This document shows positions 27,966-47,117 of a DNA stretch of 64,000 bases, in pieces. The notes under the pieces were generated by a model. The model saw nothing but the letters and a program-made list of their open reading frames with translations. It had not been told where the DNA came from and did no database searches. Made by a program: the position numbers and the translations under genes. This DNA is from an uncultured Muribaculaceae bacterium (lineage in GTDB: Bacteria > Bacillota_I > Bacilli_A > RF39 > UBA660), in NCBI GenBank assembly GCA_964408085.1, contig CAYOYB010000003.1, positions 18,806 to 82,805 on the forward strand, given 5' to 3'. The stretch's first letter is position 1. Each line of letters starts with the position of its first letter.

Positions 27966-28054
27966 ACTAACACCTCTATTACCATTATACACTTTTATTA
28001 AAAAAAATCTTATATTAATTGTTAGACTAAAAAATTAATGCTTATTTTTTTTTG

Positions 28055-29191: not shown

Positions 29192-29326
29192 AATATCGCC
29201 CCCATAATTTTATAACTATATTATATCAAAATATACAAAAATGTAAAATTTTTTAATAATTTATAATTACTAAAAAAATAAAATTTGATTATAATAAAAA
29301 GCCTTTTTTAATTTAGGCTTATAGTA

Positions 29327-29986: not shown

Positions 29987-30005
29987 ACTTTTATCTCCCT
30001 ATATA

Positions 30006-30353: not shown

Positions 30354-30422
30354 CTCCTTTATAATAAAAAAACAATTTAAATATAATATGTCAATATATT
30401 AATATATTTCACTATTATTTTA

Positions 30423-31190: not shown

Positions 31191-31212
31191 ACTACGATCT
31201 ACCTATTTTCCT

Positions 31213-31671
31213 TTAATCAATCCAACTTGAAACTTGAAAAACAATCATTTCTGGGTTGTTCTTAACAATATATTTAATAATATCATTATCATCATCTATA
31301 ATGATATTAACATTATTTATATCAATATTTTCTTTTAAATATTTACTTTTTAATTCCTTAGAAGAAAAACTATTATTTTCTACATTTTCCTTTGATATAA
31401 ATATAACATTATTTATATCAAAAAAAGGCATATATTTTTTTATCCATTCAATCTTGTCTTTAACAATTATATCATTTTTACAAATAGTTAAAATTTTTAT
31501 TTTAATATCTTTTTCAAGTAAATCTTTAATTCTTTTTATATTACTTTGTAATGGTCTAATTGTATTATAATCAAAATTGCCAATATCATATTCTGCAATT
31601 ACACCATCCATATCGACATATATATCAATATTTTTATTATTATATTTATCTAATGTATCATAAAATTTCAT
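31213..31671 (-). CDS. 5'(3')-deoxyribonucleotidase (NT5C-type HAD hydrolase)
   Basis: HAD motif I IYVDMDGVIAEY (DxDGV), typical of the NT5C family. The start MKFYD at 31671 is preceded by GGGGGAG. Confidence 0.6.
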   Translation of the reverse strand: MKFYDTLDKYNNKNIDIYVDMDGVIAEYDIGNFDYNTIRPLQSNIKRIKDLLEKDIKIKILTICKNDIIVKDKIEWIKKYMPFFDINNVIFISKENVENNSFSSKELKSKYLKENIDINNVNIIIDDDNDIIKYIVKNNPEMIVFQVSSWID

Positions 31672-31805
31672 ATTACTCCCCCAACTCAAATTGACTACTT
31701 ATTATTGTTAGAATGTATTCTTAATTAATAAATAGCTACCTTAATCATTATACTACTTTTTATAAATTTTTTCTACTTTACATTAATTTATATTTGTTTA
31801 TGCAA

Positions 31806-31834
31806 ACAAAAAAAAGCCTTATTTTAGAGGCTTT
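31806..31834 (-). terminator. intrinsic terminator after 31906..32613
   Basis: aagcct-tattttag-aggctt hairpin with an A-run on plus (U-run on minus). Confidence 0.5.
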
Positions 31835-31905
31835 TAGTTTTAAAAGTATGTACAAGAAGAATATTGTTTACAACTTTAAAATCATAATAATTGAAAACTT
31901 TTATT

Positions 31906-32613
31906 TTAATCATCTATATATTTGCCTACTATTGCCCAAGATAATATTTTTCCTTTAACTTTTTCATCATAAGAAATATTATCTGGAAATTCAGAAAGAC
32001 CCCAATAGTTTAAAAGTTCATTTGCTACATTCTTTATCATTTCTCTTTTAGATTTATGATCTTGTAATCTAAGATTAATTTCATCGCTGCGTTTACCTTG
32101 ATTTTTATAGTTTTCTGTCAATTTATTCGCCAATTCACTGGTATATCCTTTGCTATCATAAATAGTAATTTCAACTTTTGGTCTTAATACATGTTCAATT
32201 TCTAATAAAGGAAACGCAAACAGTCCTGTATAACTATAACCATCTATCTTTAACCAATTTTTATCTGGCAACGCAACATTTACTTCTATCTTATCTTGTT
32301 CAATACTATTACTTTGTTTAAGTTTTCTTAAAACACCTTCATATAAATTATACCTAGCAACATAAATGAATAATGGATTCCCTATTAGCTCTCCATTTAA
32401 TTTATCATTTTCAAATACTGAAACCTCTAAATTTAAAAGTGATTTAAAATACTCAAGTTGTTCCCTATTTAAATTATAGATATTTTGGTTTATGTCAAAA
32501 AGTAATTTATCTTTGTCAGTTAATAAACTGTCTATATCATTAAGGCTTTTATGTTCAGCACTTGGTGGTATATCTATTTCAAAAAGTCCTTTTTGTGTAT
32601 CATTTTTTGTCAT
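31906..32613 (-). CDS. hypothetical protein
   Basis: 235-aa ORF with GGAGGAG RBS. No recognisable motif. Confidence 0.5.
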   Translation of the reverse strand: MTKNDTQKGLFEIDIPPSAEHKSLNDIDSLLTDKDKLLFDINQNIYNLNREQLEYFKSLLNLEVSVFENDKLNGELIGNPLFIYVARYNLYEGVLRKLKQSNSIEQDKIEVNVALPDKNWLKIDGYSYTGLFAFPLLEIEHVLRPKVEITIYDSKGYTSELANKLTENYKNQGKRSDEINLRLQDHKSKREMIKNVANELLNYWGLSEFPDNISYDEKVKGKILSWAIVGKYIDD

Positions 32614-32959
32614 AAGCTCTCCTCCTAGGTATTATAATATAATTTTATCCTTTTAATAAATACAACTAATCAATATTTTAATACAAATAATATTTTCATT
32701 ATGAAAGTTTGTTTCTAAATATCAAGATACAATTTTGTCTACATAAATATTATATCATAAACTTTAAATATTAAAAAATATAACCTTCATAAAATTTAAA
32801 AATTCGATTTTTCTATCAATTTGGTACTAGATTAGGTGTCACTTGGATATTTTTATAAAAATAATTCCTATAATTATTGTACTATATATTTTATAAAATG
32901 TATTTAAAAGAATGAAAAAATATGTTATAATAATCAACTAAATTGGAGGTTTTGTTTTT

Positions 32960-33706
32960 ATGAATAAAGAGTATATATACATAGATGGTAAAGCTATAAT
33001 AAAAGATGATAAAGGAAATCAAGTACCAATTGAATATTATGATAATTTAGATAAGGTATTAGTTCAAGAAAATTTAGTTGAAACTATGGAAAAAAGAATT
33101 AAAGAATTAGAAAAAGAAAGTGAACAATATAAAAAATATAATAAAAAACGTTATATCCCCACTATTTTCCCTATGGCTGCAATTATAGCAATAATAGGTG
33201 CACCTATAATGGCTTATTTTCTAGGAGATACTAGTGTATTTACATCACAAATTGATACAGTATTTGGAACTATGAATAAAGCATTATTTTTTAGTATCTT
33301 TTTCTCTACTGTACTTTTACCATTAGGAGCTTTTTTAGAAGCTCATATGTATTACATCTATAAACGTGCAATAAAAGAAGAAAAAGGAATTAATAGCGAA
33401 CTTGAACTTTTAAAGAAAGAAATAGTTGTGGAAAAAGAAAAATTAATTAATTTACAAAAAGAAAAAACACGAGATGAAGAAAATAAAGAATTTAGAGTTG
33501 TGACAGTAGATGATTTAAAAGTATTGGAGGACTTTAAAAATCTTAGACAATTATATTTTGATTTAGGATATAATGGTGAAAAATATTACAAATATTATCA
33601 AAATGGTATATTGGATAATAAATTAGGGGAATATTATACTGAAGATGGAATAGAGATTGCCAAACAATATTTAGAAGAAAAAGGTCCTACACTAACAAAA
33701 AAATAA
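32960..33706 (+). CDS. membrane protein, function unknown
   Basis: 248 aa. GGAGG RBS. Two to three TM helices centrally (IPTIFPMAAIIAIIGAPIMAYF; LFFSIFFSTVLLPLGAF), flanked by coiled-coil-like charged segments. Confidence 0.5.
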   Translation: MNKEYIYIDGKAIIKDDKGNQVPIEYYDNLDKVLVQENLVETMEKRIKELEKESEQYKKYNKKRYIPTIFPMAAIIAIIGAPIMAYFLGDTSVFTSQIDTVFGTMNKALFFSIFFSTVLLPLGAFLEAHMYYIYKRAIKEEKGINSELELLKKEIVVEKEKLINLQKEKTRDEENKEFRVVTVDDLKVLEDFKNLRQLYFDLGYNGEKYYKYYQNGILDNKLGEYYTEDGIEIAKQYLEEKGPTLTKK

Positions 33707-33844
33707 CCAATTATTAAATAAAAAAATAGGTCGATTTAGAAATATATTTTAATTAGAGGATTGTAATCTGTGATTTACAGGTAACAGTTCTTTTCTTTTT
33801 TTGATTCTTTTATATAAATAATAAATTTATCGTATATCTATAGT

Positions 33845-34543
33845 TTAGTTTTTATAACCACATAAACTTTTTGTAAGTTGTTTAACATTTTCTTCAATTG
33901 AATCGTGATTTAAAGCAATATATTTATTATGGTTATAAAATAATTCAACTAATGATTCTTGATATTTTTCATAATCTATTTCATAATCATTTTCAGTATA
34001 CATTATTATATGATTAAAATGATTTTTACCTATATATAGCAATCCTTCGCTTGGACGATATTGAGGTTCTAATAAGCAGCCATTTTTAGTATGTAATATA
34101 CATGGGTTATCACCATTAGCTATTTTGGAATCAAGTAGTATTGTGCTAATCAATTTTTCATCGGCAAGCCCTCTAGGTCTTAGATATACATTTTTCATAT
34201 TATAAGAAACAGCTAAAACTACAAGACCTGTATTTAATATATTTAGCATATATTCAGGGTTATTTATATCTAAAAAATCATTTGGTGAAAAAGCACAAGG
34301 AAATCGCTTGCAACAAGTCCCACAAGTTTTACATTTAGAAGAAGAGCAAAATGTTTTTTCGATATCTAATTTGGAATAATCACTTGTTATTTCAAAATGA
34401 TCTATATCTGGAGCACGATTATTATGTATATTAACTAATTTGATAAGTTCTTTCTTTTTATGAATTAAATATTGTTCCTCTAATGACATAATTATCACGC
34501 TTTCTAAAACTAAATGTATTCTTTTATTTTTAGTTACATACAT
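33845..34543 (-). CDS. YkgJ-family Cys-cluster (CxxCxxCC) protein
   Basis: CSSSKCKTCGTCCKRFPC matches the YkgJ/PF03692 zinc/iron-chelating motif. The alternative start MSLEEQ at 34489 is possible. Confidence 0.5.
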   Translation of the reverse strand: MYVTKNKRIHLVLESVIIMSLEEQYLIHKKKELIKLVNIHNNRAPDIDHFEITSDYSKLDIEKTFCSSSKCKTCGTCCKRFPCAFSPNDFLDINNPEYMLNILNTGLVVLAVSYNMKNVYLRPRGLADEKLISTILLDSKIANGDNPCILHTKNGCLLEPQYRPSEGLLYIGKNHFNHIIMYTENDYEIDYEKYQESLVELFYNHNKYIALNHDSIEENVKQLTKSLCGYKN

Positions 34544-34740
34544 TCAAATTAATATATTGTATTTCTGTTTAGCGTGTATTATATAGCAAAATATTATATA
34601 ATGTCAAATTTATTTTTTATGCTTTAATAGTATTTAAATAATTAAACTATTGTAAAGAATAAAAAAAGTTAAAGGCTTTTAAATTAGTACATAAATTATG
34701 ATTGTTTAAAAATGTTTATTAAAGTTAAATTTAATAAACA

Positions 34741-35475
34741 TTAATTTTGGTAAACTTTTACATATTCAATTTCATAAACAAGTGGCATATCACTATTCTT
34801 TGGTTTTAAACCTTTTCTTCCAATTGCTAAATTAAGTAATATATAATATTTTTTCTTAAATTTATTACCTTGTATATTTTTTATATTTATTTGATTAATT
34901 AATTCATCATCAATATATATTTTCATATAATCCTCTTGCCAATCTAATTTCCATACATGAAATTTATTTTGCCATTCACTATCCTTATTTTTAAAATAAT
35001 CAATTGAAAGTTGTTTAGATGACCAATTATATTCTCCATTATTTGACCACATAAAATTAGCTAATATTGAAGGACTATCACCACACATATAATACTCCAT
35101 TACATCAACTTCATCACAAAAAGGATATTCTTCTTCACTGCCTAACAACCATATTGCAGGCCATGAACCATCTGCTGTAGGAATTTTTGCTTTTACTTCT
35201 AAAATGCCATATTTAAATTCAAATTTTCCTTTAGTATTTATTGAGGATGAAGTAAATTCAGCATATTCTCTATTTCTTCTCCAATCATCATTATTAGGTT
35301 CATATAAATCATTTTTGATATTTTCTTTTTTACCATAAATTTTCAAACCATTTGAAAGAGCTATATTTTTATTTGTATAATATTGTAATTCGTAATTTCT
35401 TATAAACCCTTCTTCAAAATTCCAGTTATCTAAATTATTAAAATAATCTGCAAATACTAATTTCATTATTATCAC
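34741..35475 (-). CDS. glycoside hydrolase family 16 (beta-glucanase/laminarinase-like)
   Basis: GH16 catalytic motif DEVDVME (ExDxxE) and surrounding beta-jelly-roll blocks (WPAIWLLG). No obvious signal peptide. Confidence 0.65.
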   Translation of the reverse strand: MIIMKLVFADYFNNLDNWNFEEGFIRNYELQYYTNKNIALSNGLKIYGKKENIKNDLYEPNNDDWRRNREYAEFTSSSINTKGKFEFKYGILEVKAKIPTADGSWPAIWLLGSEEEYPFCDEVDVMEYYMCGDSPSILANFMWSNNGEYNWSSKQLSIDYFKNKDSEWQNKFHVWKLDWQEDYMKIYIDDELINQINIKNIQGNKFKKKYYILLNLAIGRKGLKPKNSDMPLVYEIEYVKVYQN

Positions 35476-35514
35476 TTCTCCATAAATATTTTAACATATT
35501 ATTTAATTAAATAA

Positions 35515-35573
35515 CAAAGGCTAACCAAAATTAACCTTTCATATAATTTAAAATAGATTAATTCAACTAATTT
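35515..35573. repeat. Partial copy of the tRNA-Arg downstream flank (terminator hairpin + spacer); putative old attachment-site scar
   Basis: aaaggctaaccaaaattaacctttcatataatttaaaatagattaattcaactaattt aligns with 46975-47036 (aaaggttaaccgaaattaacctttaatatatttaaagtcgattagttcgactaattt). Confidence 0.5.
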
Positions 35574-35589
35574 TTGGGAAATAATTACT

Positions 35590-35900
35590 TATTCAATCTC
35601 TTTTCATATATATAGCCTTGTTCTGTAACAACATTTTTACATTTATCAAGTTCACCATTTGGAATAGTCTTTTCATATATTTTTTTACAACCAAGACTTT
35701 CATAAAGCCTAGAATTGCAAAATTCATAAGTTAATATTTATAAACATTTAACATTATCTTGCTTAGCATATTCAAATAACCATTTTTTCTGTTTCATCTA
35801 ATATTTCAAGTAAATAAATCCAAACATGCACGTTACCCTTTTCTCTAGAAAAATTTTACTCAAGTCTCATCCATTTGCATAACACAACTGCCTGTTTAAT
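35590..35900 (-). pseudogene. GNAT acetyltransferase remnant (multiple frameshifts)
   Basis: No intact ORF. Minus-strand frames read ...GNVHVWIYLLEILDETEKMVI... and ...LYESLGCKKIYEKTIPNGELDKCKNVVTEQGYIYEKRLNK*, i.e. the GNAT C-terminal motif (FYEKLGF-like), split across frames. Confidence 0.35.
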
Positions 35901-35928
35901 TTCATACTTTCATCGTCAAAATACTTTT

Positions 35929-36669
35929 TTAATTATTATCCATATAGATATAATTATAATATTTATAGAGATTTTCACAATTTTCTTTTACAAAAACAAT
36001 ATTTTTTTCAATTAAGTATTTAACTATATCACTAGCATTATAGTTATTTCCATAGGTAAGTAAAGAAATCTTTTTTGGTTCTATTATTTTATTAGAAAAG
36101 GTATGCATATTCCAGTATTCCATTTGTTTTTCAGATACATTACTATCGTAAGCATATAAATCTTCAATATAACTCGCTGGATAATTTGAAAACGCCTTCA
36201 CCTCATCAACATCATCAAAACTAAAATCAATATTTTCTTCTAAATCTAAAATCAAGTAGACACTATTATCTAAAATATTTTTCAATTTTCTATAAGACCA
36301 TATAGATTTATTTCTGCTTTTCTTATTATTAGAAATTATTGTTTTATGTATTATTTTAGGAAAGAAACTAACTTTTAAAAGATATGCGCCTATCCAATAT
36401 ATTAAATTACTTTTGGGCTTCGCAATAAGCCATTTAATCCAAGTGTCCATAATAACTAAAGCACCTTTATCTCCAACAGAAAAAAATATTTTTTTGCTTT
36501 TTTCAATAATTTTAGCATTTATCCCAATTTTAGGAATCAATCCTTTTTCTATAATACTATTTAAATTATTAACATTAGTATAATGAAGAAAAATATTATT
36601 TAGATTGACTTTGGAAATATCATTAGTATTTATATTTAATAGTATATCGTCTTTCATAATAATTCTCAC
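35929..36669 (-). CDS. hypothetical protein with DarT/DUF4433-like N-terminal motif (possible ADP-ribosyltransferase toxin)
   Basis: IFLHYTNVNNLNSIIEKGLIPK parallels the DarT N-terminal signature (IYHITHIDNLKGILRMGKL; HxT...NLxSI...GL). The rest is unassigned. 246 aa. Confidence 0.35.
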   Translation of the reverse strand: MRIIMKDDILLNINTNDISKVNLNNIFLHYTNVNNLNSIIEKGLIPKIGINAKIIEKSKKIFFSVGDKGALVIMDTWIKWLIAKPKSNLIYWIGAYLLKVSFFPKIIHKTIISNNKKSRNKSIWSYRKLKNILDNSVYLILDLEENIDFSFDDVDEVKAFSNYPASYIEDLYAYDSNVSEKQMEYWNMHTFSNKIIEPKKISLLTYGNNYNASDIVKYLIEKNIVFVKENCENLYKYYNYIYMDNN

Positions 36670-37153
36670 CTATTTCTTGTTATTAATAAGTTACCATTTT
36701 ATATAAATACATTTTAGCATATTTTTGGTTTAAATAATAGGGTTATTAATTCAGTATTAACTACTCACAGTGAACTATTATACATGGCTATATTATGAAA
36801 AATTATAACTACTAGTATAGGTTTGTTTTTTATTTCTTAGTAAGAAGAAAAATTTTATTTTTAAAGACTTATATTCTATTTTTAAAATAATGCAAACTAT
36901 TTTAAATAAAATTAAATCATAAAAAAAATTGCCTAAGCAAATATTTTATAAAGTGGTGCCTCTAGTGGTTAGATACCAAACTGCCACAAAGGAAAGTTAT
37001 TCCACCTCAAGTACAACCAAATTATACTGCACAATCTTTAACAATGGAACAAATTTATAACAAAAATATAACTTTTTTATAACAAATTTTTGGAAGAAAT
37101 AAATTTTTCAAAATACTTAACACATAAATTTATAATTAAAAATCAAATCAATT

Positions 37154-37546
37154 TTATAATATCTCAATTTCATCATCTATTAATATATCGTATTCATCAT
37201 CAAAATAATGAGCAATAATATGAAAAATAATATGAAATTTTTTTTCATTTATTCTTATTATATTACAGTCGTATTGTCCATAAATAATAATTGATATCCA
37301 ACCTTTTTCGTCTTCAAACGTAACATCAGTTATATATTCTTTAATATCTGTTTTAATTCCAAACGCAGTATTTTCAAACATCTCTTTCGAAAAAGTAAAT
37401 TCTAATCCAATAAATGTATTATTAACATTAAATGTAATAAATGGAGCAATTCCAGTTCTTTTGTGACCATAGGAACTGACTGAAAAATTTCCCCATAAAA
37501 TTTTTGTTTCAAATTTATTGTATTCTATATTATTAATTTTTATCAT
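37154..37546 (-). CDS. hypothetical protein (130 aa)
   Basis: ORF with no recognisable motif, located between the DarT-like gene and the element boundary repeat. Confidence 0.4.
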   Translation of the reverse strand: MIKINNIEYNKFETKILWGNFSVSSYGHKRTGIAPFITFNVNNTFIGLEFTFSKEMFENTAFGIKTDIKEYITDVTFEDEKGWISIIIYGQYDCNIIRINEKKFHIIFHIIAHYFDDEYDILIDDEIEIL

Positions 37547-37591
37547 TTTAAATACTTACCTTTCAAATTTAATAAAAGCAAACCACAGAGG

Positions 37592-37614
37592 GTTCGTCTA
37601 ATTTCCCTATGGTG
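37592..37614. repeat. attL-like direct repeat (copy of tRNA-Arg 3' end + flank)
   Basis: gttcgtctaatttccctatggtg is 22/23 identical to 47023-47045, followed by a degenerate tRNA-like stretch acctaaggcgaacg. Confidence 0.6.
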
Positions 37615-37637
37615 ACCTAAGGCGAACGTTCAACAAC

Positions 37638-38402
37638 TTATTTTTTATCATTTTCAACTAAAATATATTGGCAAAAATCAAACTTACTATTGAACTTATT
37701 TACAACATTCTTCAAACTTTTTTCACTGCAAGTAATAGTAATAATTACATCTTTTTTATATAAAGTCAATAAATCTTTTAATATATCCTCTATAACTTGT
37801 TCTTCTTCGCTTAATAAACATCTAATACATAATTTATTATTGTAATTAAAATAGTTACTTGAAATATCTCCATAATTTGGATCATAATCAAAGTTTTTAT
37901 AATCAACTATTCCAACAATTCTTCCCATTTTTCGATAAACTCTATATTCAAACCCTTCATTATTAAACATTTTCTCATCATATTCTTGATACTGCTTGTT
38001 GGGATTAAGATACATAGAATTTTCTTGAGATATTTTATTGATAATTTTTAAATAAAAATTCTTTTCTTCTTGATTTAAAGTGTTAGAAACTTCATAAGCA
38101 TTTAATTTAAAATTTTTAGATTTTTTAATTGTGTATTGATAATTTAAAACTTTTAAACCATTTTTATACAGCATTTTTTCCATAATTGAAGAATCATATT
38201 CGACAAAAAGAACTCTAATGTCTTTTGAATTCTTTAATTGCTGGATAACATAATTTATAAAATCTAAATCATATTTTTCGTTAATAAAAATTGTATCAAA
38301 AATGCAGTCATCTTCATAATGCACTATTTCCAATTCTGAACCATCTAACAAATTTTTAAATATTATTTTATCATTTTCTATTACTTTAATGTATTTTTCC
38401 AT
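37638..38402 (-). CDS. hypothetical protein (254 aa; possibly GNAT-like fold)
   Basis: ORF preceded by the repeated promoter/operator element. The block YRVYRKMGRIVGIVDY hints weakly at an acyl-CoA N-acyltransferase beta-strand. Confidence 0.45.
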   Translation of the reverse strand: MEKYIKVIENDKIIFKNLLDGSELEIVHYEDDCIFDTIFINEKYDLDFINYVIQQLKNSKDIRVLFVEYDSSIMEKMLYKNGLKVLNYQYTIKKSKNFKLNAYEVSNTLNQEEKNFYLKIINKISQENSMYLNPNKQYQEYDEKMFNNEGFEYRVYRKMGRIVGIVDYKNFDYDPNYGDISSNYFNYNNKLCIRCLLSEEEQVIEDILKDLLTLYKKDVIITITCSEKSLKNVVNKFNSKFDFCQYILVENDKK

Positions 38403-38442
38403 AATTCTCCTCTAAAAGTATAATAACAATGTCATTATACAA

Positions 38443-38590
38443 GTGTGTTTTCAAATTGGCAAAATTCAGTTTACATCTACGAAGAATTATATCATATTTT
38501 CAAGCATATTAAAATTCGAACCTTCTATAGATTTTAAAAGTTCGAGTTTTCTATCAATCTGGTGCCCGAGAGAGAGAAGTACAACGACTT
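38443..38590 (-). promoter_or_regulatory. Repeated ~150-nt promoter/operator element, copy 1 (copy 2 at 39350..39500; partial third copy 32797..32835)
   Basis: Near-identical blocks caagtgtgttt.caaattg.caaaattca...attatatcatatttt...ttcgaac-N19-gttcgag...ttttctatcaatctggtgcc. The minus strand gives an extended -10 TGATATAAT and inverted repeat CTCGAAC...GTTCGAG. Confidence 0.5.
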
Positions 38591-38591
38591 T

Positions 38592-39323
38592 TTATTTTAA
38601 AGATTTACTAGCTAAAGTCAATTCTCTGTCTACTGGTTTATTTTTTGATAAAAAATATAAATACTCATACAATCCATTAGATACTTTATTATCTGAAATA
38701 AGAGAAAATCCTAAATCTTTTTTACACTCATCACAAATAATAGTTTCCAATCTTTTAGTCAATACATTTATTGATACTTCTAAAGGACAATTTCTTAAAA
38801 ACGAAGGATTTATTACTTCACGCATATTTTGATAATTATATGCCCATTCAGTTAGTGGATTTTTTAAAGCATCTTTCCTTTGGCTAAATTCTTTACTATC
38901 TCTTCCTTGTTTCTCAAATGTTTCTTTCATAGAATCTTCATCTAGGTAGGGAACTACTTTTAACAATAGAACTCTATTAGGATAGTCGCTACAAATTTGA
39001 AGATAAGATTCTTCGTTTGATAAATCAATACATGGTATTTTCCCTCTAGCCAAAGAATTATCAATATCTGCTTTTTTAAAAGCATAATGTTCTAGATTAA
39101 GGCGGTTAGTATATTGATAATTCATTTGACAAATATCATCAAATGAAACATCACCTTTTACATCAGATACATTTGCTTCATCAGTTCTAGATTTACGAGT
39201 AGTATATTTAGTTATAATTTCAAGGTTGGGATATTTGGTAAGTAGTTCTCTAGAGACAAACGATTTTCCACTTCCTGTTTCACCAACAATTATTATAATT
39301 AAATCATTTGAATTATTCCCCAT
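38592..39323 (-). CDS. P-loop kinase, guanylate-kinase-like fold (paralog of 15665..16282)
   Basis: Walker A IIVGETGSGKSF. Motif YTTRKSRTDEANVSDVKGDVSFDDI resembles GK TTRxxRxxExxGxDYxF. Confidence 0.55.
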   Translation of the reverse strand: MGNNSNDLIIIIVGETGSGKSFVSRELLTKYPNLEIITKYTTRKSRTDEANVSDVKGDVSFDDICQMNYQYTNRLNLEHYAFKKADIDNSLARGKIPCIDLSNEESYLQICSDYPNRVLLLKVVPYLDEDSMKETFEKQGRDSKEFSQRKDALKNPLTEWAYNYQNMREVINPSFLRNCPLEVSINVLTKRLETIICDECKKDLGFSLISDNKVSNGLYEYLYFLSKNKPVDRELTLASKSLK

Positions 39324-39564
39324 ATGCTTATAAACCTCTCATTCTTTAATTGACCATGTCAATTAACAAGTGTGTTTACTAAATTGACAAAATTCAATTT
39401 AATTCTATAAAAATTATATCATATTTTTTAAACATATTAAAACTCGAACTATCGAAAAATTCAAAAGTTCGAGTTTTCTATCAATCTGGTGCCTTAACGG
39501 GTGACGTTTGGAAATTTTTATTAAGGTTAATTCCAATATTAATTATATCATAAATAATAGTTTT

Positions 39565-40680
39565 TTAAACATCTTTATTAAACAAATTATTTAAAGCAAT
39601 ATACCATTCATTATTTTGACTAAGTGTTGGATAATAATCCTTTATTTTTTTTAAATATGTTAGTAATGATTTTAATCGTAATTTTTTTGAAATGAAATTA
39701 ACAAATTCATCATTTAATGCAATTTCATTATTTATAATATTTTCCAAATATGTGTCAACTAAATAGTTGCAAAATTTATATTCCCCAGAATTATCTATTA
39801 TTTTTTGAAAAATTGCATTAGCAATTTCCTGTTTATTAGAAAAATATCTAATTAAATGCTTAGCACCTAATAAAATTTCATCATCAGTTTTATCTAGATA
39901 AGACATTTTAAAATTTTGTGCATTCAATAAAACCATCTCTTCAATTTTTATTTTTCCTAAAGAACTAAATTTTTGAAAAACCTCTATATATAGGAAGTTA
40001 AATGCTAATAATATTTCTTGTCGGTTAATATTTCCAAAAAGGTCTTTCTCAATTATCATACAAAATTCATTGAACTTATCAGCTTCTAAATTATCTATAA
40101 ATGTTTTAATTATTATACCTTTATTACCTTTAATTTCTTTTCTATTTCTATATAGCATAACTAATAAATCAAACAGTTTATTTTTTGGAATTTTGCTTAA
40201 CAATTCTTCAGAATACTTTTTTGAATTCGGACAAAATGGTCCTTTTATTTCTTCATACCACTCATCAATACTATTAATAGTTTTACTTTCACCTATTTCT
40301 TTTAATATAACTTGATCTAATAAAATTAAAACTGCATCTGTTATATCTTTATTATAATTCTTCTTTGTATGGCTCATTGGATTCCTAAAATATTCAATTA
40401 ATCCTTTAGATAAATCACAAATACCACGATGCATATTTTTATCATTTTCTGTTTCCAATTTATTAATTTTTATTAATGGTTTCTTCTCAGAAAATGCTTT
40501 GTTTATCAAATCCACACCATCATTATCTAACAAGTCAGACTTTTTTCTTATTTCACTACATAAATATAAAATAGCGTCTCTAATTGACTCTGTATAATCT
40601 TCTTTATTGTAGTGTAATTCTATACTCTTTACAAAGTCTTCGTTTTTTAATTTTATCATAAACATACCTCCATTAAACAT
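39565..40680 (-). CDS. HEPN-domain protein (Rx4H motif; Abi/TIGR02391-like), 371 aa
   Basis: LIEYFRNPMSHT contains the HEPN R-x4-H motif in a predicted helical context. The C-terminal 250 aa are unassigned. Confidence 0.45.
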   Translation of the reverse strand: MFNGGMFMIKLKNEDFVKSIELHYNKEDYTESIRDAILYLCSEIRKKSDLLDNDGVDLINKAFSEKKPLIKINKLETENDKNMHRGICDLSKGLIEYFRNPMSHTKKNYNKDITDAVLILLDQVILKEIGESKTINSIDEWYEEIKGPFCPNSKKYSEELLSKIPKNKLFDLLVMLYRNRKEIKGNKGIIIKTFIDNLEADKFNEFCMIIEKDLFGNINRQEILLAFNFLYIEVFQKFSSLGKIKIEEMVLLNAQNFKMSYLDKTDDEILLGAKHLIRYFSNKQEIANAIFQKIIDNSGEYKFCNYLVDTYLENIINNEIALNDEFVNFISKKLRLKSLLTYLKKIKDYYPTLSQNNEWYIALNNLFNKDV

Positions 40681-40711
40681 TCAATCCTTCTGCACTATAA
40701 TTATTTATTAT

Positions 40712-41356
40712 TTAATTTTCTATCAATTCACATTCATAATTAGATAATGAGCATTTAATTGTTATATCAAATCTATCAGTATTTCGAATCTTGGCATTAT
40801 AATATATATTTTGTGTATCTACTTTTTCAATATAATTAATCATAACATATTCTAAAGGATTATTAGATATATTGGAAGTATCAAATTTTAATTCTTTTTT
40901 TTGAAAATTTTCCCTTTCTAATGTATATTCTAACAATAAACCACCTAGACATCTATTAATAAAAAGTTTGTTTTGGTTATTTTTATCATCACTATAGAAA
41001 TAATTATACCTTTCATATTTATATAAATCATCTTGATTACCACAAGATTCAATCTCATCAAGTAAAATATAATCATTATCATTAATTTTATAAAATAAAC
41101 CATTAATTCCACCTTCGTCGTGATGTTCTAAAGTAATATCTGCAATTGCATAGGTTTCTATATTATCATCATAATAAAAAGTATAAGAATTTATATTTTT
41201 ATTTTTTAAATCAAAATGTTCAAAATCGGCATATTGGTCAATTTGTGTTTTATTTCCACAACCACATATACATAATATCAAAAAGAAAAATAAAACTACA
41301 TTTTTTTTCACACTAATCACCAAGAATATTATATCAAATTTATTATAATTTAACAA
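40712..41356 (-). CDS. lipoprotein, function unknown
   Basis: Signal peptide with lipobox LILCICGCGN. 214 aa. Confidence 0.5.
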   Translation of the reverse strand: MLNYNKFDIIFLVISVKKNVVLFFFLILCICGCGNKTQIDQYADFEHFDLKNKNINSYTFYYDDNIETYAIADITLEHHDEGGINGLFYKINDNDYILLDEIESCGNQDDLYKYERYNYFYSDDKNNQNKLFINRCLGGLLLEYTLERENFQKKELKFDTSNISNNPLEYVMINYIEKVDTQNIYYNAKIRNTDRFDITIKCSLSNYECELIEN

Positions 41357-41376
41357 AAAAATAAATATTTTCGTAT

Positions 41377-41697
41377 TTATTTTTTTCCTATTTCTTTCTT
41401 CTTTTTTAAAATATCTTCAATTTTACTTTGCATTTTACTATCATTAATCCATTCAGAATAAAATATAGTATCTGGTGTCATATTAAATATAACTGATAAC
41501 ATAATCGCCATTTCATAACTTAAGTTTCTTTGACCATTAATTATCTGCCATATAAATGGTTTAGAACACCCAATAATTTTAGATAAATCATTATACGTAT
41601 ATTCACTTCTATCTTTTAATGATTTAAGCATTTCACATTTTTTTCTCATATAAATATATCTTCTTTTCCTCCTTTCATATAAGTAGTAATTAGTCAT
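41377..41697 (-). CDS. XRE-family HTH regulator (element repressor candidate)
   Basis: LKSLKDRSEYTYNDLSKIIGCSKPFIWQIINGQRNLS is an HTH_3 pattern. Divergent from 41735..42016. Confidence 0.55.
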   Translation of the reverse strand: MTNYYLYERRKRRYIYMRKKCEMLKSLKDRSEYTYNDLSKIIGCSKPFIWQIINGQRNLSYEMAIMLSVIFNMTPDTIFYSEWINDSKMQSKIEDILKKKKEIGKK

Positions 41698-41734
41698 ATA
41701 TGACGTCGACGGAAGTCAAATAAAAATATATAAT

Positions 41735-42016
41735 TTGGTTATATATGACAAATTTCAAACTAGTTTTATCACAAGAATGGAGGTGCTTGCCGTGGTTAAT
41801 ATAACTAATCAAGATAGAATATACATTGCTCATAATATTCTTAAATTTAGAAAGGCTAAAGGGTTAACTCAAGAACAATTAGCCTTTGAGGCTGGCACAA
41901 CCAATAAATGTATAAGTGATTTAGAACTAGGTAAAAGAAATGTTAAAATTGATACTATTTCTAGAGTTGCTAAAGCACTTGGTGTTAAATTATCAGATTT
42001 AACAAAAATGAATTGA
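41735..42016 (+). CDS. XRE-family HTH regulator (Cro-like)
   Basis: LKFRKAKGLTQEQLAFEAGTTNKCISDLELGKRNVKIDTISRVAKALGVKLSDL is a classic HTH_3. The start may be the internal MEVLAVV. Confidence 0.65.
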   Translation: MVIYDKFQTSFITRMEVLAVVNITNQDRIYIAHNILKFRKAKGLTQEQLAFEAGTTNKCISDLELGKRNVKIDTISRVAKALGVKLSDLTKMN

Positions 42017-42127
42017 CTATTTACTACCTATTTTAATTATAACAGAAAAAAGTTAGTATGTCCCTATATGATACCTTCTTTTTTCTTTTTTTATGAGAAA
42101 ATTATTTATATAAGGTGGTAGTAAGGT

Positions 42128-42433
42128 ATGAAAATAAATAATGCTTTTGACTTATTTGATTTAGTTGATAAAAATTTGCCACAAGATTATAAAATAAATA
42201 TATGTAAAAATATGCGTAAATTTCGTATTGAGAAATATAATCAATTCAAGTCAGAAAATAAAGGAACTGAAAACCCATATAGTGTAGATAATATTGCCGA
42301 ATTATTGGGGATTAGTAAAGTTCATTATAAAAGATTAGAAAATGTTAATGATAAATGCAAACATATAAATTTAGATAAACTGATTATTTTATCGATTATT
42401 TATGAAAAGAAACTTGATGATTTCATAAAATAA
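42128..42433 (+). CDS. HTH-domain protein (XRE-like), 101 aa
   Basis: MRKFRIEKYN...SVDNIAELLGISKVHYKRLEN matches the HTH_3 pattern. Followed by a perfect hairpin aaaggggtattcccctttg at 42505-42523. Confidence 0.45.
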   Translation: MKINNAFDLFDLVDKNLPQDYKINICKNMRKFRIEKYNQFKSENKGTENPYSVDNIAELLGISKVHYKRLENVNDKCKHINLDKLIILSIIYEKKLDDFIK

Positions 42434-42579
42434 TGAATAAATAAAAAGTGTAATATAAATCTTATTAATGGATTTTATTACACTTTTTATATGGATTTGG
42501 GGGTTTCAAAAGGGGTATTCCCCTTTGCACACCGTTATTGGCTTTGCCAATAGCGTAGTGTGTTTACTCTTTTGGTTTT

Positions 42580-43308
42580 TCAAAAAATTGTTTTGATAAC
42601 TTTGTCAGTACCATTTATCAACTCATCAACTTCATCTTTAGTTGGTTCTCTATCTTTATTATGGTCACATAAATTTCTTATATCGCCTAAATGTTGAATA
42701 AATCTCCAATTAATAATGTCATAGATGTTTTCCTGTTTAAATAAATCATTATAATCACTTATACATGGTTCTTTTTTAGACAATTTTAAATTATGGTTTT
42801 TAAGCATAGTGGAAAAATGTTTCTCTAAAATAACTCCACATAGTGCACCAGCACTTCTGAGATAACCCTTTTTCCATAATTTTCTTGATGAAAGCAATTC
42901 ATCATCTAATATTTCAAGTTCCATACTATTTTTTATATTGAATAAAACATTATCAACACTTTCACTTATTGATTTAATAATATTAATTTGATTAATAAAT
43001 TTTATTAAAGCAGTAGCTTTTGGGTCAAAACGCTGCCTACCACATGATACCCCTGTAATATAATCGTATATTGAAAAATTAGAATAAGTTATTCCTTTTC
43101 TATTCAAACACTTATAACACTCAGCAAATTCATCATATCTATTAGGTAATATTTCCTTAACTATAATACTTGCCTTTGTATACCAGATTTGATATTCCTG
43201 AGCAATTATAAGCGCACGTTTATTTTTTACATCATCAGAAAATTTTTTTAATATTTCACTACCATCGTTATATAATTGAACAATTGAATCTTTTATCGCC
43301 TTATTCAT
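42580..43308 (-). CDS. hypothetical protein with C-terminal HEPN-like Rx4H motif
   Basis: QHLGDIRNLCDHNKD (R-x4-H) near the C-terminus, as in C-terminal HEPN/Abi families. 242 aa; sits immediately downstream of the relaxase. Confidence 0.35.
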   Translation of the reverse strand: MNKAIKDSIVQLYNDGSEILKKFSDDVKNKRALIIAQEYQIWYTKASIIVKEILPNRYDEFAECYKCLNRKGITYSNFSIYDYITGVSCGRQRFDPKATALIKFINQINIIKSISESVDNVLFNIKNSMELEILDDELLSSRKLWKKGYLRSAGALCGVILEKHFSTMLKNHNLKLSKKEPCISDYNDLFKQENIYDIINWRFIQHLGDIRNLCDHNKDREPTKDEVDELINGTDKVIKTIF

Positions 43309-43404
43309 TTTTTATTTTACCTCCTTATATAAAAATTAGCATTAAAATATATTTTTTTATACTTTTCAAATCGAAACAATTATAGCACACTTTGACAATC
43401 TTTT

Positions 43405-46463
<3,059 letters not shown>

Positions 46464-46668
46464 TTATCAACTCCTTTTCTATAAAAAAGAAGTCAAAAGA
46501 ATTAGTTCAAATACTACTACCTTTGACTTCTAAAATATAATTATAATTTTGTTTATTTCTAATTTAGGCATAGTAGTACCTCTCTTTCCAATAAAAGACT
46601 AGATACTGCTTGCTTTTATTAAGTTTATATTTTATCATTTATTTTTCTTTTGTCAATAGGGTTAGTTT

Positions 46669-46947
46669 TTATGTGTTTTTATGTGTTTTTATATAATTTT
46701 CTAATTCGTTAAATGGTATAAATTTTTCTAATGTATTGATATAAACATTTTCACATTCATTAAAGAATAAATATGTTATATTACCAATAACTAGTTTATG
46801 AGGCTCAATATAAGCAAGATTAGTTTTAGGAATATTAATTATATTTCCTTTTTGTATTTTTTCTTTAATATTTAGAAACATTAAGATATTTTTTACTCTT
46901 TTCTTTAGTGTTTCTTCTATTTCTAATTTTTCCTTTATTATTTGCAT
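46669..46947 (-). CDS. small hypothetical protein (possible recombination directionality factor)
   Basis: 92-aa ORF between the recombinase and the attR/tRNA end. No motif. Confidence 0.3.
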   Translation of the reverse strand: MQIIKEKLEIEETLKKRVKNILMFLNIKEKIQKGNIINIPKTNLAYIEPHKLVIGNITYLFFNECENVYINTLEKFIPFNELENYIKTHKNT

Positions 46948-46966
46948 AACTAATCAACTCCTCTCA

Positions 46967-46992
46967 AAGCATAATAAAAAAGGTTAACCGAA
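46967..46992 (-). terminator. intrinsic terminator downstream of tRNA-Arg
   Basis: Perfect 9-bp stem aaaggttaa-ccgaaa-ttaaccttt, followed on the minus strand by TTTTTTAT. Confidence 0.55.
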
Positions 46993-47022
46993 ATTAACCT
47001 TTAATATATTTAAAGTCGATTA

Positions 47023-47040
47023 GTTCGACTAATTTCCCTA

Positions 47041-47045
<5 letters not shown>
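47023..47045. repeat. attR-like direct repeat overlapping the tRNA-Arg 3' end
   Basis: gttcgactaatttccctatggtg. The last 5 nt are the tRNA 3' terminus (rc CACCA). Confidence 0.6.

Positions 47046-47117
<72 letters not shown>

What the first reader, a model, noticed from the sequence alone, without database searches (positions are those of the whole stretch)
37638..39500. Duplicated ~150-nt promoter/operator driving a GK-like P-loop kinase and a 254-aa partner gene
Two near-identical non-coding blocks (38443-38590 and 39350-39500) precede the two adjacent minus-strand genes 37638..38402 and 38592..39323. Each block carries an extended -10 (TGATATAAT on the minus strand) and an inverted repeat CTCGAAC-N17-19-GTTCGAG reminiscent of a dimeric repressor operator. 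A weaker third copy sits at 32797-32835.

This implies both genes are independently but coordinately repressed, presumably by one of the element's HTH proteins. The arrangement is typical of tightly controlled toxic or defence genes.
Basis: seen in the sequence. Interest (0 to 1): 0.55.

Follow-up and report, generated by a model that had tools for sequence, protein, structure and literature searches.

The report
Stackable gene cassettes at tRNA ends
The two repeated "promoter/operator" blocks are the conserved front ends of two separate single-gene mobile cassettes, stacked behind a serine-recombinase mobile element at the CCA end of a tRNA-Arg gene, and the same cassettes and elements sit behind many different tRNA genes in related gut bacteria.

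Summary
Three copies of a ~150-nt block lie upstream of three minus-strand genes. A and B are 80% identical, not near-identical. Each has a conserved extended -10 and the CTCGAAC/GTTCGAG inverted repeat.

The interpretation does not hold. The block's invariant core begins with the ACCA 3' end of a tRNA or pseudo-tRNA, and it occurs in 55 species-level genomes. In 38 of these it sits directly behind real tRNA or tmRNA genes. The inverted repeat's spacing varies from 3 to 23 nt among homologous copies, so it is a hairpin, not a fixed-spacing operator.

Blocks A and B are the 5' ends of two independent cassettes, each ending in a pseudo-tRNA end (…GGGC-ACCA):
- 38560-39486, carrying a guanylate-kinase-fold protein.
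- 37610-38559, carrying a tandem-GNAT-like protein.

Each cassette is found alone elsewhere, with similarity bounded ACCA-to-ACCA. Upstream lies a 7.55-kb integrative mobilizable element (39487-47040) with a large serine recombinase and a MobV relaxase. Its relatives sit exactly at the CCA of at least 13 different tRNAs and tmRNA.

The block's 3' part resembles the element's MobV-type oriT hairpin.

Verdict: a new variant of IME/CIME accretion. Mobilisation of the cassettes in trans by a recombinase is inferred, not shown.

The parts
47041..47117 (-). tRNA-Arg(tct) gene. Its 3' ACCA (47041-47044) is the integration point of the whole array.
   Evidence: ARAGORN and Rfam; sequence.
39487..47040 (-). 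Integrative mobilizable element (7,554 nt). Components in order:
- left end TAGGGAAATTAGTCGAACTAATCGAC (47015-47040) plus a terminator (46976-47002);
- a 92-aa ORF;
- large serine recombinase (44658-46460);
- MobV relaxase (43405-44661);
- a 242-aa ORF;
- XRE HTH genes;
- a 214-aa ORF;
- a Ymh/HEPN-like 371-aa protein;
- a right end finishing ...GGC-ACCA.
   Evidence: Pfam and NCBIfam. In 31 of 39 related loci the recombinase lies 490-620 nt after the same X|CCA-TAGGGAAATTAG junction. In 20 loci the same right-end motif lies 4.2-7.5 kb downstream.
42528..42565 (-). Presumptive oriT of the element: AAACACAC-TACGCTATTGGC-AAA-GCCAATAACG-GTGTG. It is followed by a terminator-like hairpin at 42508-42526.
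   Evidence: Fold -14.8 kcal/mol, z = -2.3. The same hairpin is conserved in 13 related recombinase loci. The design matches the pMV158 MobM oriT (PMC5863519; sequence verified in plasmids).
39491..39560 (-).
   Evidence: HMM of this motif hits 20 recombinase loci at the far end of the element; coordinates.
39340..39490 (-). Block A, the 5' module of the kinase cassette. Sub-features:
- junction ACCA 39487-39490;
- spacer GATTGATAGAAAA 39474-39486;
- hairpin 39443-39473 plus a T-run;
- promoter P1 TATGATATAAT 39413-39423;
- -35-like TTGTCA 39385-39390;
- AAACACAC 39370-39377;
- palindrome TTAATTGAC-ATG-GTCAATTAA 39346-39366;
- RBS 39335-39340.
38592..39323 (-). 243-aa guanylate-kinase-fold P-loop protein, the cargo of cassette 1.
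   Evidence: AF2 pLDDT 86. Foldseek to GMP kinases gives TM 0.6-0.75 and E about 1e-7. Pfam and NCBIfam hits are below cut-off. 40 homolog clusters.
38560..38593 (-). 3' end of the kinase cassette: AAAAAGTCGTTGTACTTCTCTCTCTCGGGC-ACCA, a pseudo-tRNA acceptor end.
   Evidence: 3'-end HMM, E = 2e-5. Similarity to L067 and L066 stops exactly here.
38412..38563 (-). Block B, the 5' module of the GNAT cassette. Sub-features:
- ACCA 38560-38563;
- spacer 38547-38559;
- hairpin 38515-38546;
- P1 38486-38496;
- TTGCCA 38457-38462;
- AAACACAC 38443-38450;
- palindrome 38418-38440;
- RBS 38407-38413.
37638..38402 (-). 254-aa tandem-GNAT-like protein, the cargo of cassette 2.
   Evidence: AF2 pLDDT 89. 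Foldseek to 3frm, VipF and MshD gives E 1e-8 to 1e-6 and TM about 0.45. No Pfam, NCBIfam or PADLOC hit. 29 homolog clusters.
37610..37639 (-). 3' end of the GNAT cassette: AAGTTGTTGAACGTTCGCCTTAGGTC-ACCA.
   Evidence: 3'-end HMM; coordinates.
37571..37609 (-). Trailer TAGGGAAATTAGACGAAC, with 17 of 18 bases matching the element's left end at 47040, followed by an intrinsic terminator. It is either an old att remnant or the pre-existing trailer.
32682..32900 (-). Block C (32682-32825) preceded by a degenerate element right end (32826-32900). P1 at 32749-32759 is intact and the hairpin is degenerate. It drives the 235-aa ORF 31906-32613 and is a relic of an older accretion.
   Evidence: (motif model).

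Best explanation
The blocks are the conserved 5' end-modules of a family of small, non-autonomous, single-gene mobile cassettes. These cassettes stack head-to-tail at the 3' CCA end of tRNA and tmRNA genes.

Each cassette reads, in order:
- CCA;
- a 13-nt spacer;
- the CTCGAA/TTCGAG hairpin, with a T-run in this class;
- an extended -10 promoter (P1);
- a second promoter-like site overlapped by a CACAC...palindrome (P2);
- an RBS and one cargo gene;
- AAGTTGTTG(A/T)AC...GGGC-ACCA.

The last motif is a pseudo-tRNA acceptor end. It regenerates a CCA-ended target, so further units can be added behind it.

The window reads: tRNA-Arg | 7.55-kb element with a large serine recombinase and a MobV relaxase | kinase cassette | GNAT cassette | trailer.

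Shown by comparison:
- the unit boundaries;
- the relocation of the same cassette between different tRNAs;
- the generic CCA-end placement of the recombinase element;
- constraint on P1.

Inferred:
- The hairpin terminates read-through from the upstream tRNA or unit, and forms part of the recombination site.
- P1 gives each cargo gene autonomous expression.
- The P2/palindrome segment derives from a MobV-type oriT. It keeps its GTGTG nick motif in about 40% of copies but not in the window's copies.
- Cassettes are excised and integrated in trans by serine recombinases of the co-resident elements. One element lineage has the same two end types as the cassettes.
For: 1. **The core is widespread and sits at tRNA ends.** The 23-nt core ACCARATTGATAGAAAANTCGAA has 55 exact hits in species-representative genomes, against fewer than 1 expected for 21 specified bases. 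In 38 of 55 the ACCA is the end of a real tRNA or tmRNA gene: Leu, Arg, Thr, Met, Ala, Glu, Val or tmRNA.

2. **About 25 near-full copies share the same modular anatomy**.

3. **The units have a conserved 3' end.** About 30 examples all abut a new trailer with TCGAAC 12-14 nt after the CCA.

4. **Cassettes relocate between sites.**
- L035 (tRNA-Thr) and L055 (tRNA-Leu) carry the same cassette at 88% nucleotide identity exactly from ACCA| to GGGYACCA|, with unrelated flanks.
- The window's kinase cassette matches L067 over exactly 39491-38560, directly behind tRNA-Arg(cct).
- The GNAT cassette occurs in L068 and L069 behind two different upstream units and without the kinase.
- In L041 a cassette sits between tRNA-Leu and tRNA-Ser.

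5. **The recombinase element sits at CCA ends generally.**
- 31 of 39 related loci have the junction X|CCA-TAGGGAAATTAGTCGAAC.
- X is one of at least 13 tRNA species, tmRNA, or a pseudo-tRNA end.
- This holds even for recombinases about 90% identical to the window's.
- The right-end motif is found in 20 loci, and some are followed by plain native terminators.

6. **A second element lineage has cassette-type ends.** L032 and L024 have both cassette-type ends, and L046 and L009 are internally deleted derivatives.

7. **P1 shows a promoter conservation pattern**.

8. **The hairpin has loops of 3-23 nt with compensatory variants**. Hairpin A has z = -4.7.

9. **The oriT design is shared with the element and with pMV158.** Sources: MobV passes the NCBIfam cut-off; the element's CACAC...GTGTG hairpin is conserved in 13 loci; pMV158 oriT (PMC5863519); palindrome arms co-vary among block copies.
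Against: - No excision product, empty site in a near-isogenic genome, or circular junction was observed. All evidence is comparative.
- The window's own element has different end sequences (TAGGG... and ...TTTCCAAACGTC...GGC) from the cassettes (GATTG... and ...GTTGTTGWAC...GGGC). Its recombinase may therefore not act on the cassettes.
- Blocks A, B and C lack the GTGTG nick motif, so an oriT function for them is doubtful.
- The palindrome z-scores are modest (mean -1.7).
- The trailer after the GNAT cassette repeats the element's left end (17 of 18 nt). An alternative boundary, with the element running 37610-47040 and carrying both cassettes, cannot be excluded.
- Several cassette copies are decayed (L061, L126, block C), so many may no longer be mobile.
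Confidence: 0.75

Rival explanations
1. A locally duplicated promoter/operator lets an element-encoded XRE-type dimeric repressor bind the CTCGAAC-N17-19-GTTCGAG inverted repeat. The repressor would co-repress a toxic or defence gene pair, the kinase and its partner.
For: - The two genes are adjacent and each has the block.
- XRE HTH genes exist in the neighbouring element.
- The kinase and a homolog of the 254-aa gene are also adjacent in L061.
- Kinase homologs are often near GNAT genes.
Against: - Arm spacing varies from 3 to 23 nt among homologous copies.
- The repeat lies upstream of -35, directly after a tRNA-type CCA, with a T-run, like a terminator.
- The identical repeat follows 38 real tRNA or tmRNA genes in other genomes.
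- The cassettes occur without any XRE or recombinase element nearby.
- Each gene occurs without the other.
- Neither protein has a PADLOC hit.
Confidence: 0.05
2. The cassettes are not mobile units in their own right. On this view they are relics of repeated integrations of full recombinase elements that later lost their backbone. Alternatively, they spread by homologous recombination between the conserved 5' block and 3' end after DNA uptake, with no site-specific recombination of cassettes.
For: - Internally deleted elements that keep both ends exist (L046 and L009).
- L032's element carries a 'P2 module + cargo + 3' end' slot identical in layout to the 3' two-thirds of a cassette.
- The conserved ends (150 nt and 35 nt) could serve as homology arms.
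- Many copies are decayed.
Against: - Class-1 cassettes share a specific 5' architecture (P1 plus P2). The elements' left ends lack it, having a terminator and then the 92-aa gene. Independent deletions would not recreate it each time.
- The same cassette is found behind different tRNAs with boundaries exactly at ACCA on both sides. This is what site-specific insertion predicts, and it is harder to obtain by homologous exchange at naive tRNA genes.
Confidence: 0.17
3. The block is a native, lineage-wide tRNA trailer/terminator plus a housekeeping promoter type, not part of any mobile DNA. Its recurrence would then reflect conserved host intergenic architecture.
For: - It follows many genuine tRNA genes.
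- In L029 it precedes a T-box leader and an aminoacyl-tRNA-synthetase-like gene.
Against: - There are only 1-2 copies per genome region, not one behind every tRNA unit.
- Syntenic tRNA-Arg(tct) loci (window, L005, L028, L029) carry different content behind the tRNA.
- Native trailers without the motif are seen behind recombinase elements.
- The blocks also follow non-tRNA pseudo-ends and flank relocated cassettes.
Confidence: 0.03

Closest known systems
IME/CIME accretion at tRNA genes in Firmicutes (integrative mobilizable elements and cis-mobilizable elements; review PMC5704250)
   Same: - A recombinase plus relaxase element without its own mating pore.
- Tandem arrays of autonomous and non-autonomous units sharing att-type junctions at a tRNA 3' end.
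- Internally deleted derivatives that keep both ends.
   Different: - Described tRNA-end integrations use tyrosine integrases, each specific for one tRNA. Described serine-recombinase IMEs disrupt protein genes or have low specificity. Here a serine-recombinase element sits at the CCA of at least 13 tRNA species plus tmRNA.
- The non-autonomous units are not just decayed relics. They are a uniform family of about 1-kb single-gene cassettes with their own promoter and an oriT-like hairpin.
SCC elements (staphylococcal cassette chromosome; Ccr large serine recombinases) and their composite islands
   Same: - The recombinase's nearest named families are CcrB and CcrC.
- Integration is at the 3' end of a conserved housekeeping gene without inactivating it.
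- Arrays are tandem and flanked by direct repeats, and include recombinase-less units.
   Different: - The scores are far below the Ccr family cut-offs (157 versus 900 bits), so it is not a Ccr.
- The target is tRNA/tmRNA CCA ends, not rlmH.
- The units are much smaller and carry a MobV relaxase or an oriT-like site.
Integron gene cassettes
   Same: Arrays of small, mostly single-gene, co-oriented cassettes with a conserved recombination-site structure at each boundary, and highly diverse cargo.
   Different: - There is no IntI tyrosine recombinase and no attC or attI.
- The cassettes carry their own promoter instead of relying on Pc.
- The insertion point is a tRNA CCA end.
- The associated recombinase is a serine recombinase.
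Tycheposons (Prochlorococcus; bioRxiv 10.1101/2020.12.28.424599) and Dehalococcoides ssrA genomic islands with a serine recombinase (PMC3146451)
   Same: Cargo-carrying elements and their remnants accumulate in tandem at tRNA or tmRNA genes, flanked by partial tRNA-end repeats. The Dehalococcoides islands use a serine recombinase.
   Different: - Those systems use a limited set of specific tRNA or tmRNA sites.
- I did not read these papers in detail. The comparison rests on titles and abstracts and my own knowledge.
pMV158-type MOBV1 oriT (MobM; PMC5863519)
   Same: - A CACAC...inner palindrome...GTGTG hairpin with the nick site at its 3' foot.
- Overlap with -35 and extended -10 promoters.
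- A cognate MobV relaxase present in the element.
   Different: - The inner arms are unrelated in sequence.
- In the window's blocks A, B and C the GTGTG motif is missing.
- Nicking has not been tested.

Membership tests
   The distance between arms is 3-23 nt in 52 homologous copies.
   The cassettes occur in L067, L068 and L069 with no XRE gene or recombinase element in the flanks.
Sigma-70-type extended -10 promoter (P1) | TGnTAnAAT, with the functionally critical positions conserved and the others free | tested here: met
   26 distinct copies give T .88, G .92, n, T .96, A .92, n, A .88, A .92, T .88. The transcription start was not measured.
Intrinsic terminator | A stable stem-loop followed by a T-run | tested here: inconclusive
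   A: -18.6 kcal/mol, z = -4.7, followed by TTTT. B: z = -1.8. C: none. The consensus scan did not list them because the loops exceed 8 nt.
Integrative mobilizable element (IME) | Own site-specific recombinase | tested here: met
   Resolvase + Recombinase + Zn_ribbon_recom domains.
Integrative mobilizable element (IME) | Own relaxase, and no mating-pore genes | tested here: met
   MobV scores 118.8 bits against a cut-off of 100. No T4SS-like ORFs lie in 39487-47040.
Integrative mobilizable element (IME) | Defined ends at a specific chromosomal site, recurring in other genomes | tested here: met
   The left junction is found in 31 of 39 loci and the right-end motif in 20 loci.
Integrative mobilizable element (IME) | Functional oriT, excision and transfer | not testable with these tools
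   Only a conserved oriT-like hairpin was found.
Cis-mobilizable element (CIME) | Bounded by att-type sites but lacking recombinase and transfer genes | tested here: met
   The cassettes 38560-39486 and 37610-38559 each hold one cargo gene between ACCA junctions.
Cis-mobilizable element (CIME) | Derived by decay of an ICE or IME | tested here: inconclusive
   Deleted elements exist (L046 and L009). Class-1 cassettes, however, have a 5' architecture not seen in the elements.
Integron cassette | attC site, IntI tyrosine recombinase and a promoterless cassette | tested here: not met
   There is no tyrosine recombinase in the window region. The cassettes carry P1 and the boundary is a tRNA-like ACCA.
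SCC / Ccr recombinase | Recombinase reaches the CcrA/B/C family cut-off | tested here: not met
   CcrB scores 157 bits against a cut-off of 900.
MOBV1 oriT | A hairpin with a GTGTG/T nick motif at its 3' foot, near a MobV gene | tested here: inconclusive
   - The element's site at 42528-42565 fits this design.
- About 12-14 of 33 block copies keep (G/A)TGTG.
- Window blocks A, B and C do not.
MITE / IS200-IS605-type element | Terminal inverted repeats or subterminal hairpins at both ends, non-coding or with TnpA/TnpB | tested here: not met
   The two ends are unrelated and only the 5' end has a hairpin. The units carry diverse cargo genes, and no transposase is associated with them.
Guanylate kinase (Gmk) | Reaches the family cut-off | tested here: not met
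   TIGR03263 scores 31.9 bits against 160 and Pfam 21.3 against 25.2. The fold is guanylate-kinase-like, so this is a divergent relative, not the housekeeping enzyme.

The most novel reading that the evidence does not exclude
A family of serine-recombinase elements and their non-autonomous single-gene cassettes uses the universal CCA end of essentially any tRNA or tmRNA gene as its docking point. Each inserted unit ends in a pseudo-tRNA end that recreates the target. This builds open-ended, integron-like arrays whose cassettes each bring their own terminator, promoter and MobV-type oriT. It would be a cassette-capture system separate from integrons, operating in uncultured low-GC gut Bacilli.
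Probability: 0.45. Interest if true: 0.8.

Novelty: new variant of a known kind. Interest (0 to 1): 0.62.

Why it matters
If the comparative picture is right, this lineage of uncultured gut bacteria has a modular gene-capture system with three unusual properties.

- **A generic target.** The serine-recombinase element's target is the CCA end of tRNA genes in general, not one specific gene. That would be useful to know for large-serine-recombinase target recognition, and for tools that need a conserved multi-copy landing site.
- **A self-renewing target.** Every unit ends in a pseudo-tRNA end, which explains how long arrays accrete.
- **Self-sufficient cassettes.** About 1-kb cassettes carry their own terminator, promoter and (ancestrally) oriT, so a single cargo gene can be expressed and possibly mobilised wherever it lands.

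For annotation it gives a practical rule. In these genomes a conserved 'promoter/operator-looking' repeat after ...ACCA marks a cassette boundary, not a regulon. Adjacent genes carrying it need not be functional partners.

Tried and rejected
- **Rfam** on the window and on 18 loci gave no family for the block, for the 'class 2' variant or for the element's right end. It found only tRNA, tmRNA and T-box.
- **Viral contigs** scan for the core: 0 hits.
- **Phage and plasmid collections**: no match to 37600-39560.
- **PADLOC** on ten island proteins: only the Ymh/HEPN-like protein hits.
- **IS200/IS605-style ssDNA transposon** (target ACCA, subterminal hairpins): rejected. There is no hairpin at the 3' end and no TnpA.
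- **Riboswitch or leader RNA**: rejected. There is no Rfam hit, the hairpin is invariant in sequence, and the upstream part is a tRNA end.
- **att symmetry idea**: I considered whether the trailer's TCGAAC mirrors the tRNA T-loop GTTCGA around the CC of CCA, as recombinase half-sites would. The spacing is roughly symmetric for one trailer type (14 versus 15 nt). However, trailers vary from 12 to 14 nt, and native trailers behind elements lack TCGAAC altogether. I kept this only as a loose idea.
- **Strict nested-pair regex for oriT hairpins** found nothing because of internal bulges. Folding-based detection worked.
- **pMV158 by accession** was not in the collection. I verified the oriT sequence by similarity search instead.
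- **Literature searches** found analogues but no description of this system. The library is incomplete, so this is not proof of novelty.
Full report
**1. Observation**

The region contains three copies of a ~150-nt non-coding block on the minus strand. An HMM of the three copies finds only 39501-39347, 38574-38421 and 32836-32682 in the window (E = 1e-39, 7e-44 and 2e-30; the next hit has E about 1). Each copy precedes an ORF: 38592-39323 (243 aa), 37638-38402 (254 aa) and 31906-32613 (235 aa).

All three copies carry TATGATATAAT. The inverted repeat is strong in A (CTCGAACT-N15-AGTTCGAG, -18.6 kcal/mol, z = -4.7), weaker in B (one arm mutated, z = -1.8) and degenerate in C. A and B are 80.1% identical, not near-identical.

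**2. What the block's 5' end is**

The invariant core ACCARATTGATAGAAAANTCGAA was scanned against one genome per species and gave 55 loci. Almost all are gut MAGs labelled uncultured Bacilli, Tenericutes or Erysipelotrichales. There were none in the viral collection.

In 38 of 55 loci the leading ACCA is the discriminator plus CCA of a real tRNA or tmRNA gene: Leu, Arg, Thr, Met, Ala, Glu, Val or tmRNA. In the rest it ends a non-tRNA sequence finishing ...GC-ACCA. So the block starts at a tRNA-type 3' end.

Across 52 homologous copies the arms CTCGAA/TTCGAG are constant. The loop ranges from 3 to 23 nt, and rare arm changes are compensatory. That is a hairpin, not a fixed-spacing two-half-site operator.

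**3. The blocks head discrete cassettes**

Downstream of the hairpin the loci fall into a few classes. The window's type (class 1) is present in about 25 near-full copies with the same order of parts.

Behind a class-1 block there is typically one gene and then a conserved 3' end, AAGTTGTTG(A/T)AC...GGGC-ACCA. That end is followed at once by another trailer with TCGAAC 12-14 nt after the CCA. The window's kinase and 254-aa genes end the same way, at 38560-38593 and 37610-37639.

Evidence that the cassettes move:
- L035 (behind tRNA-Thr) and L055 (behind tRNA-Leu) share 88% nucleotide identity exactly from ACCA| to GGGYACCA|. Their flanks are unrelated.
- The window's kinase cassette matches L067 over exactly 39491-38560, directly behind tRNA-Arg(cct). 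It matches L066 up to exactly 38560.
- The 254-aa cassette matches L068 and L069 (89%) behind two different upstream units, with no kinase.
- In L041 a cassette lies between tRNA-Leu and tRNA-Ser. In L057 and L058 three units follow a tmRNA gene.

The kinase and the 254-aa gene are adjacent only in the window and in L061, where the junction has decayed. Elsewhere each occurs alone.

**4. The neighbouring element**

Between the tRNA-Arg(tct) gene (47041-47117) and block A lie, in order:
- a 92-aa ORF;
- a large serine recombinase with Resolvase, Recombinase and Zn-ribbon domains;
- a MobV relaxase, which passes the NCBIfam cut-off;
- a 242-aa ORF;
- XRE HTH genes;
- a 214-aa ORF;
- a Ymh/HEPN-like protein.

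A metagenome scan with the recombinase returned 54 loci. In 31 of the 39 that were analysed, the gene lies 490-620 nt after the junction X|CCA-TAGGGAAATTAGTCGAACTAATCGAC. X is:
- tRNA-Thr, Leu (three anticodons), Lys, Phe, His, Cys, Arg (two anticodons), Glu or Gly;
- tmRNA;
- or a pseudo-tRNA end.

This holds even among recombinases about 90% identical to the window's. The discriminator base varies, so the constant part starts at CCA.

The other end of the element was found in 20 loci, 4.2-7.5 kb away. It is [extended -10]-AGAAATTAACC...AAATTTCCAAACGTG...GC-ACCA|. What follows varies from other units' trailers to plain native terminators without any TCGAAC motif.

This right-end motif is exactly the 'upstream extension' that A and C share (39491-39560 and 32826-32900). 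The window therefore reads:

tRNA-Arg-CCA | element 47040-39487 | kinase cassette 39486-38560 | GNAT cassette 38559-37610 | TAGGGAAATTAGACGAAC + terminator | 130-aa gene.

L005, syntenic on the host side, has the 130-aa homolog 1.1 kb after the same tRNA.

The trailer at 37592-37609 repeats the element's left end (17 of 18 nt). An alternative boundary at 37610, with the element carrying both cassettes, cannot be excluded.

**5. Link between cassettes and recombinases**

A second element lineage has both cassette-type ends: a GATTGATAG... left end and a GTTGTTGTAC...GGGC-ACCA right end. It is represented by L032 (recombinase about 45% identical) and L024. It also has a 'P2 module + cargo' slot. 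L046 and L009 are internally deleted versions that keep both ends.

This makes trans-mobilisation of the cassettes by such recombinases plausible, but that is inference.

One detail bears on the crossover. The base before CCA at the element's right end equals the discriminator of the tRNA it sits behind:
- T for tRNA-Cys in L087;
- T in L107, a truncated tRNA 3' end identical to the tRNA-Gly of L114;
- A for the tmRNA-like 3' end in L086, which ARAGORN did not call.

So N-CCA is shared by both junctions. With only two non-A cases, I leave this open.

**6. The promoter and the 3' part of the block**

P1 shows the conservation pattern of a functional extended -10 in 26 distinct copies: T .88, G .92, n, T .96, A .92, n, A .88, A .92, T .88.

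The 3' part of the block has three pieces: a -35-like TTGTCA, 17 nt of spacer that include AAACACAC, and a TAnAnT site. A palindrome overlaps it. The palindrome's arms differ between copies but stay complementary.

A related copy inside the element, at 42528-42565, reads AAACACAC-TACGCTATTGGC-AAA-GCCAATAACG-GTGTG, followed by a terminator hairpin. It is conserved in 13 related loci.

This is the design of the pMV158 MobM oriT:
- the left arm of IR3 starts ...CAC;
- MobM binds AAGtaTAGTGTG;
- the nick is at TGTG/TT;
- the site overlaps -35 and extended -10 promoters (PMC5863519).

The pMV158-type sequence itself was verified in 617 plasmid records.

I therefore read this part of the block as derived from a MobV-type oriT. 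About 40% of copies keep (G/A)TGTG. The window's A, B and C do not, so in the window it more likely acts only as a promoter or 5'-UTR hairpin.

**7. The proteins**

The 243-aa protein has a guanylate-kinase fold (pLDDT 86; TM 0.6-0.75 to GMP kinases). It is far below the Gmk family cut-offs.

The 254-aa protein is tandem-GNAT-like (pLDDT 89; 3frm, VipF and MshD; TM about 0.45).

Neither protein hits a defence model. Cargo of other cassettes is mixed: transglutaminase-like, ADP-ribosylglycohydrolase, HTH-CYTH, FAD oxidoreductase and unknowns.

**8. Comparison and verdict**

The closest frameworks are:
- IME/CIME accretion (PMC5704250);
- SCC composite islands, since the recombinase's nearest named families are CcrB and CcrC, though below cut-off;
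- integron cassette arrays;
- tRNA- or tmRNA-linked island arrays.

The differences are generic CCA-end placement of a serine-recombinase element across many tRNAs, a self-renewing pseudo-tRNA target, and uniform single-gene cassettes with their own promoter and an oriT-like site. I found no description of this in the searchable library.

The 'operator', 'coordinate repression' and 'toxic/defence pair' parts do not.

Noticed in passing
window 39491-39560 (also 32826-32900; L072-L116 right ends): The recombinase element's right end has a conserved outward-facing extended -10 promoter. A small hairpin (GGAATT...AATTTCC) and a pseudo-tRNA end ...GC-ACCA follow it. Transcription would run across the junction into the next unit's terminator hairpin. 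In a circular form it would run into the element's own left end and recombinase operon. This could be a small tRNA-end-like RNA or a junction promoter.
   Followed up: partly
L087, L107, L086 (junctions listed): The base immediately before CCA at the element's right end equals the discriminator of the tRNA it is integrated behind: T behind tRNA-Cys in L087, T in L107 (a truncated tRNA 3' end identical to the tRNA-Gly of L114), and A in L086 (a tmRNA-like 3' end that ARAGORN did not call). N-CCA therefore flanks both ends. This bears on where the crossover lies. There are only two non-A cases.
   Followed up: partly
L002, L005, L011, L012, L016, L017, L019, L038, L044, L045, L052, L054 (downstream of the core): A second common variant ('class 2') replaces P1 with about 390 nt of conserved non-coding sequence. 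It contains a terminator hairpin, then ...ATGTTATTATGAATATGTCAAGGAAACTTGCATAAAATAAAAAAGG..., which includes a possible 8-codon mini-ORF (MNMSRKLA). It ends in the same P2/palindrome module. It has no Rfam family and its function is unknown.
   Followed up: partly
L059/L060, L067, L061 and window 37638-39323: Kinase homologs are repeatedly next to GNAT-type acetyltransferases of different families. In L059 and L060 the two genes overlap by 4 nt. This is a possible functional link (kinase + acyltransferase) despite the cassette boundary between them in the window.
   Followed up: partly
window 36955-37040 (minus strand): Downstream of the 130-aa gene there is another extended -10 (TGCAGTATAAT). 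It is followed by GGTTGTAC...CTAGAGGC-ACCA and a terminator (TTGCTTAGGCAATTTTTTTT). This is a further pseudo-tRNA-end junction or small-RNA-like unit in the older part of the island.
   Followed up: no
window 39565-40680: The 371-aa protein has a Hypoth_Ymh (TIGR02391) N-terminal domain. It matches the PADLOC models PD-Lambda-3_B and Aga_HEPN, and is the only defence-like gene in the element.
   Followed up: no
L029 4629-6430: In a genome syntenic with the window's host flank, a class-1 block behind tRNA-Arg(tct) sits directly upstream of a T-box leader (Rfam, 138.7 bits) and a 443-aa class-II aminoacyl-tRNA-synthetase-like gene. The cassette cargo there would be a T-box-regulated synthetase.
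   Followed up: no
window 28055-37570: The rest of the island is co-oriented small genes: a 130-aa ORF, a 246-aa ORF (whose homologs are class-1 cassette cargo in L035, L047 and L055), GH16, a 232-aa ORF, block C + 235-aa ORF, NT5C-like, an AAA-like 255-aa ORF and an R2K ATP-grasp. It looks like older, decayed accretions between the array and murC (26661-27992).
   Followed up: partly
window 10814-11003 (minus strand): T-box leader (Rfam RF00230, 110.8 bits), unrelated to the finding.
   Followed up: no
L070/L071 5332-6135: A homolog of the 254-aa gene lies in an array that also contains an Anti-Pycsar Apyc1-like metallo-beta-lactamase-fold gene. MazG, NUDIX, HD and YhcG_C genes recur in other arrays. 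This hints that some cargo is nucleotide-signalling or anti-defence related.
   Followed up: no
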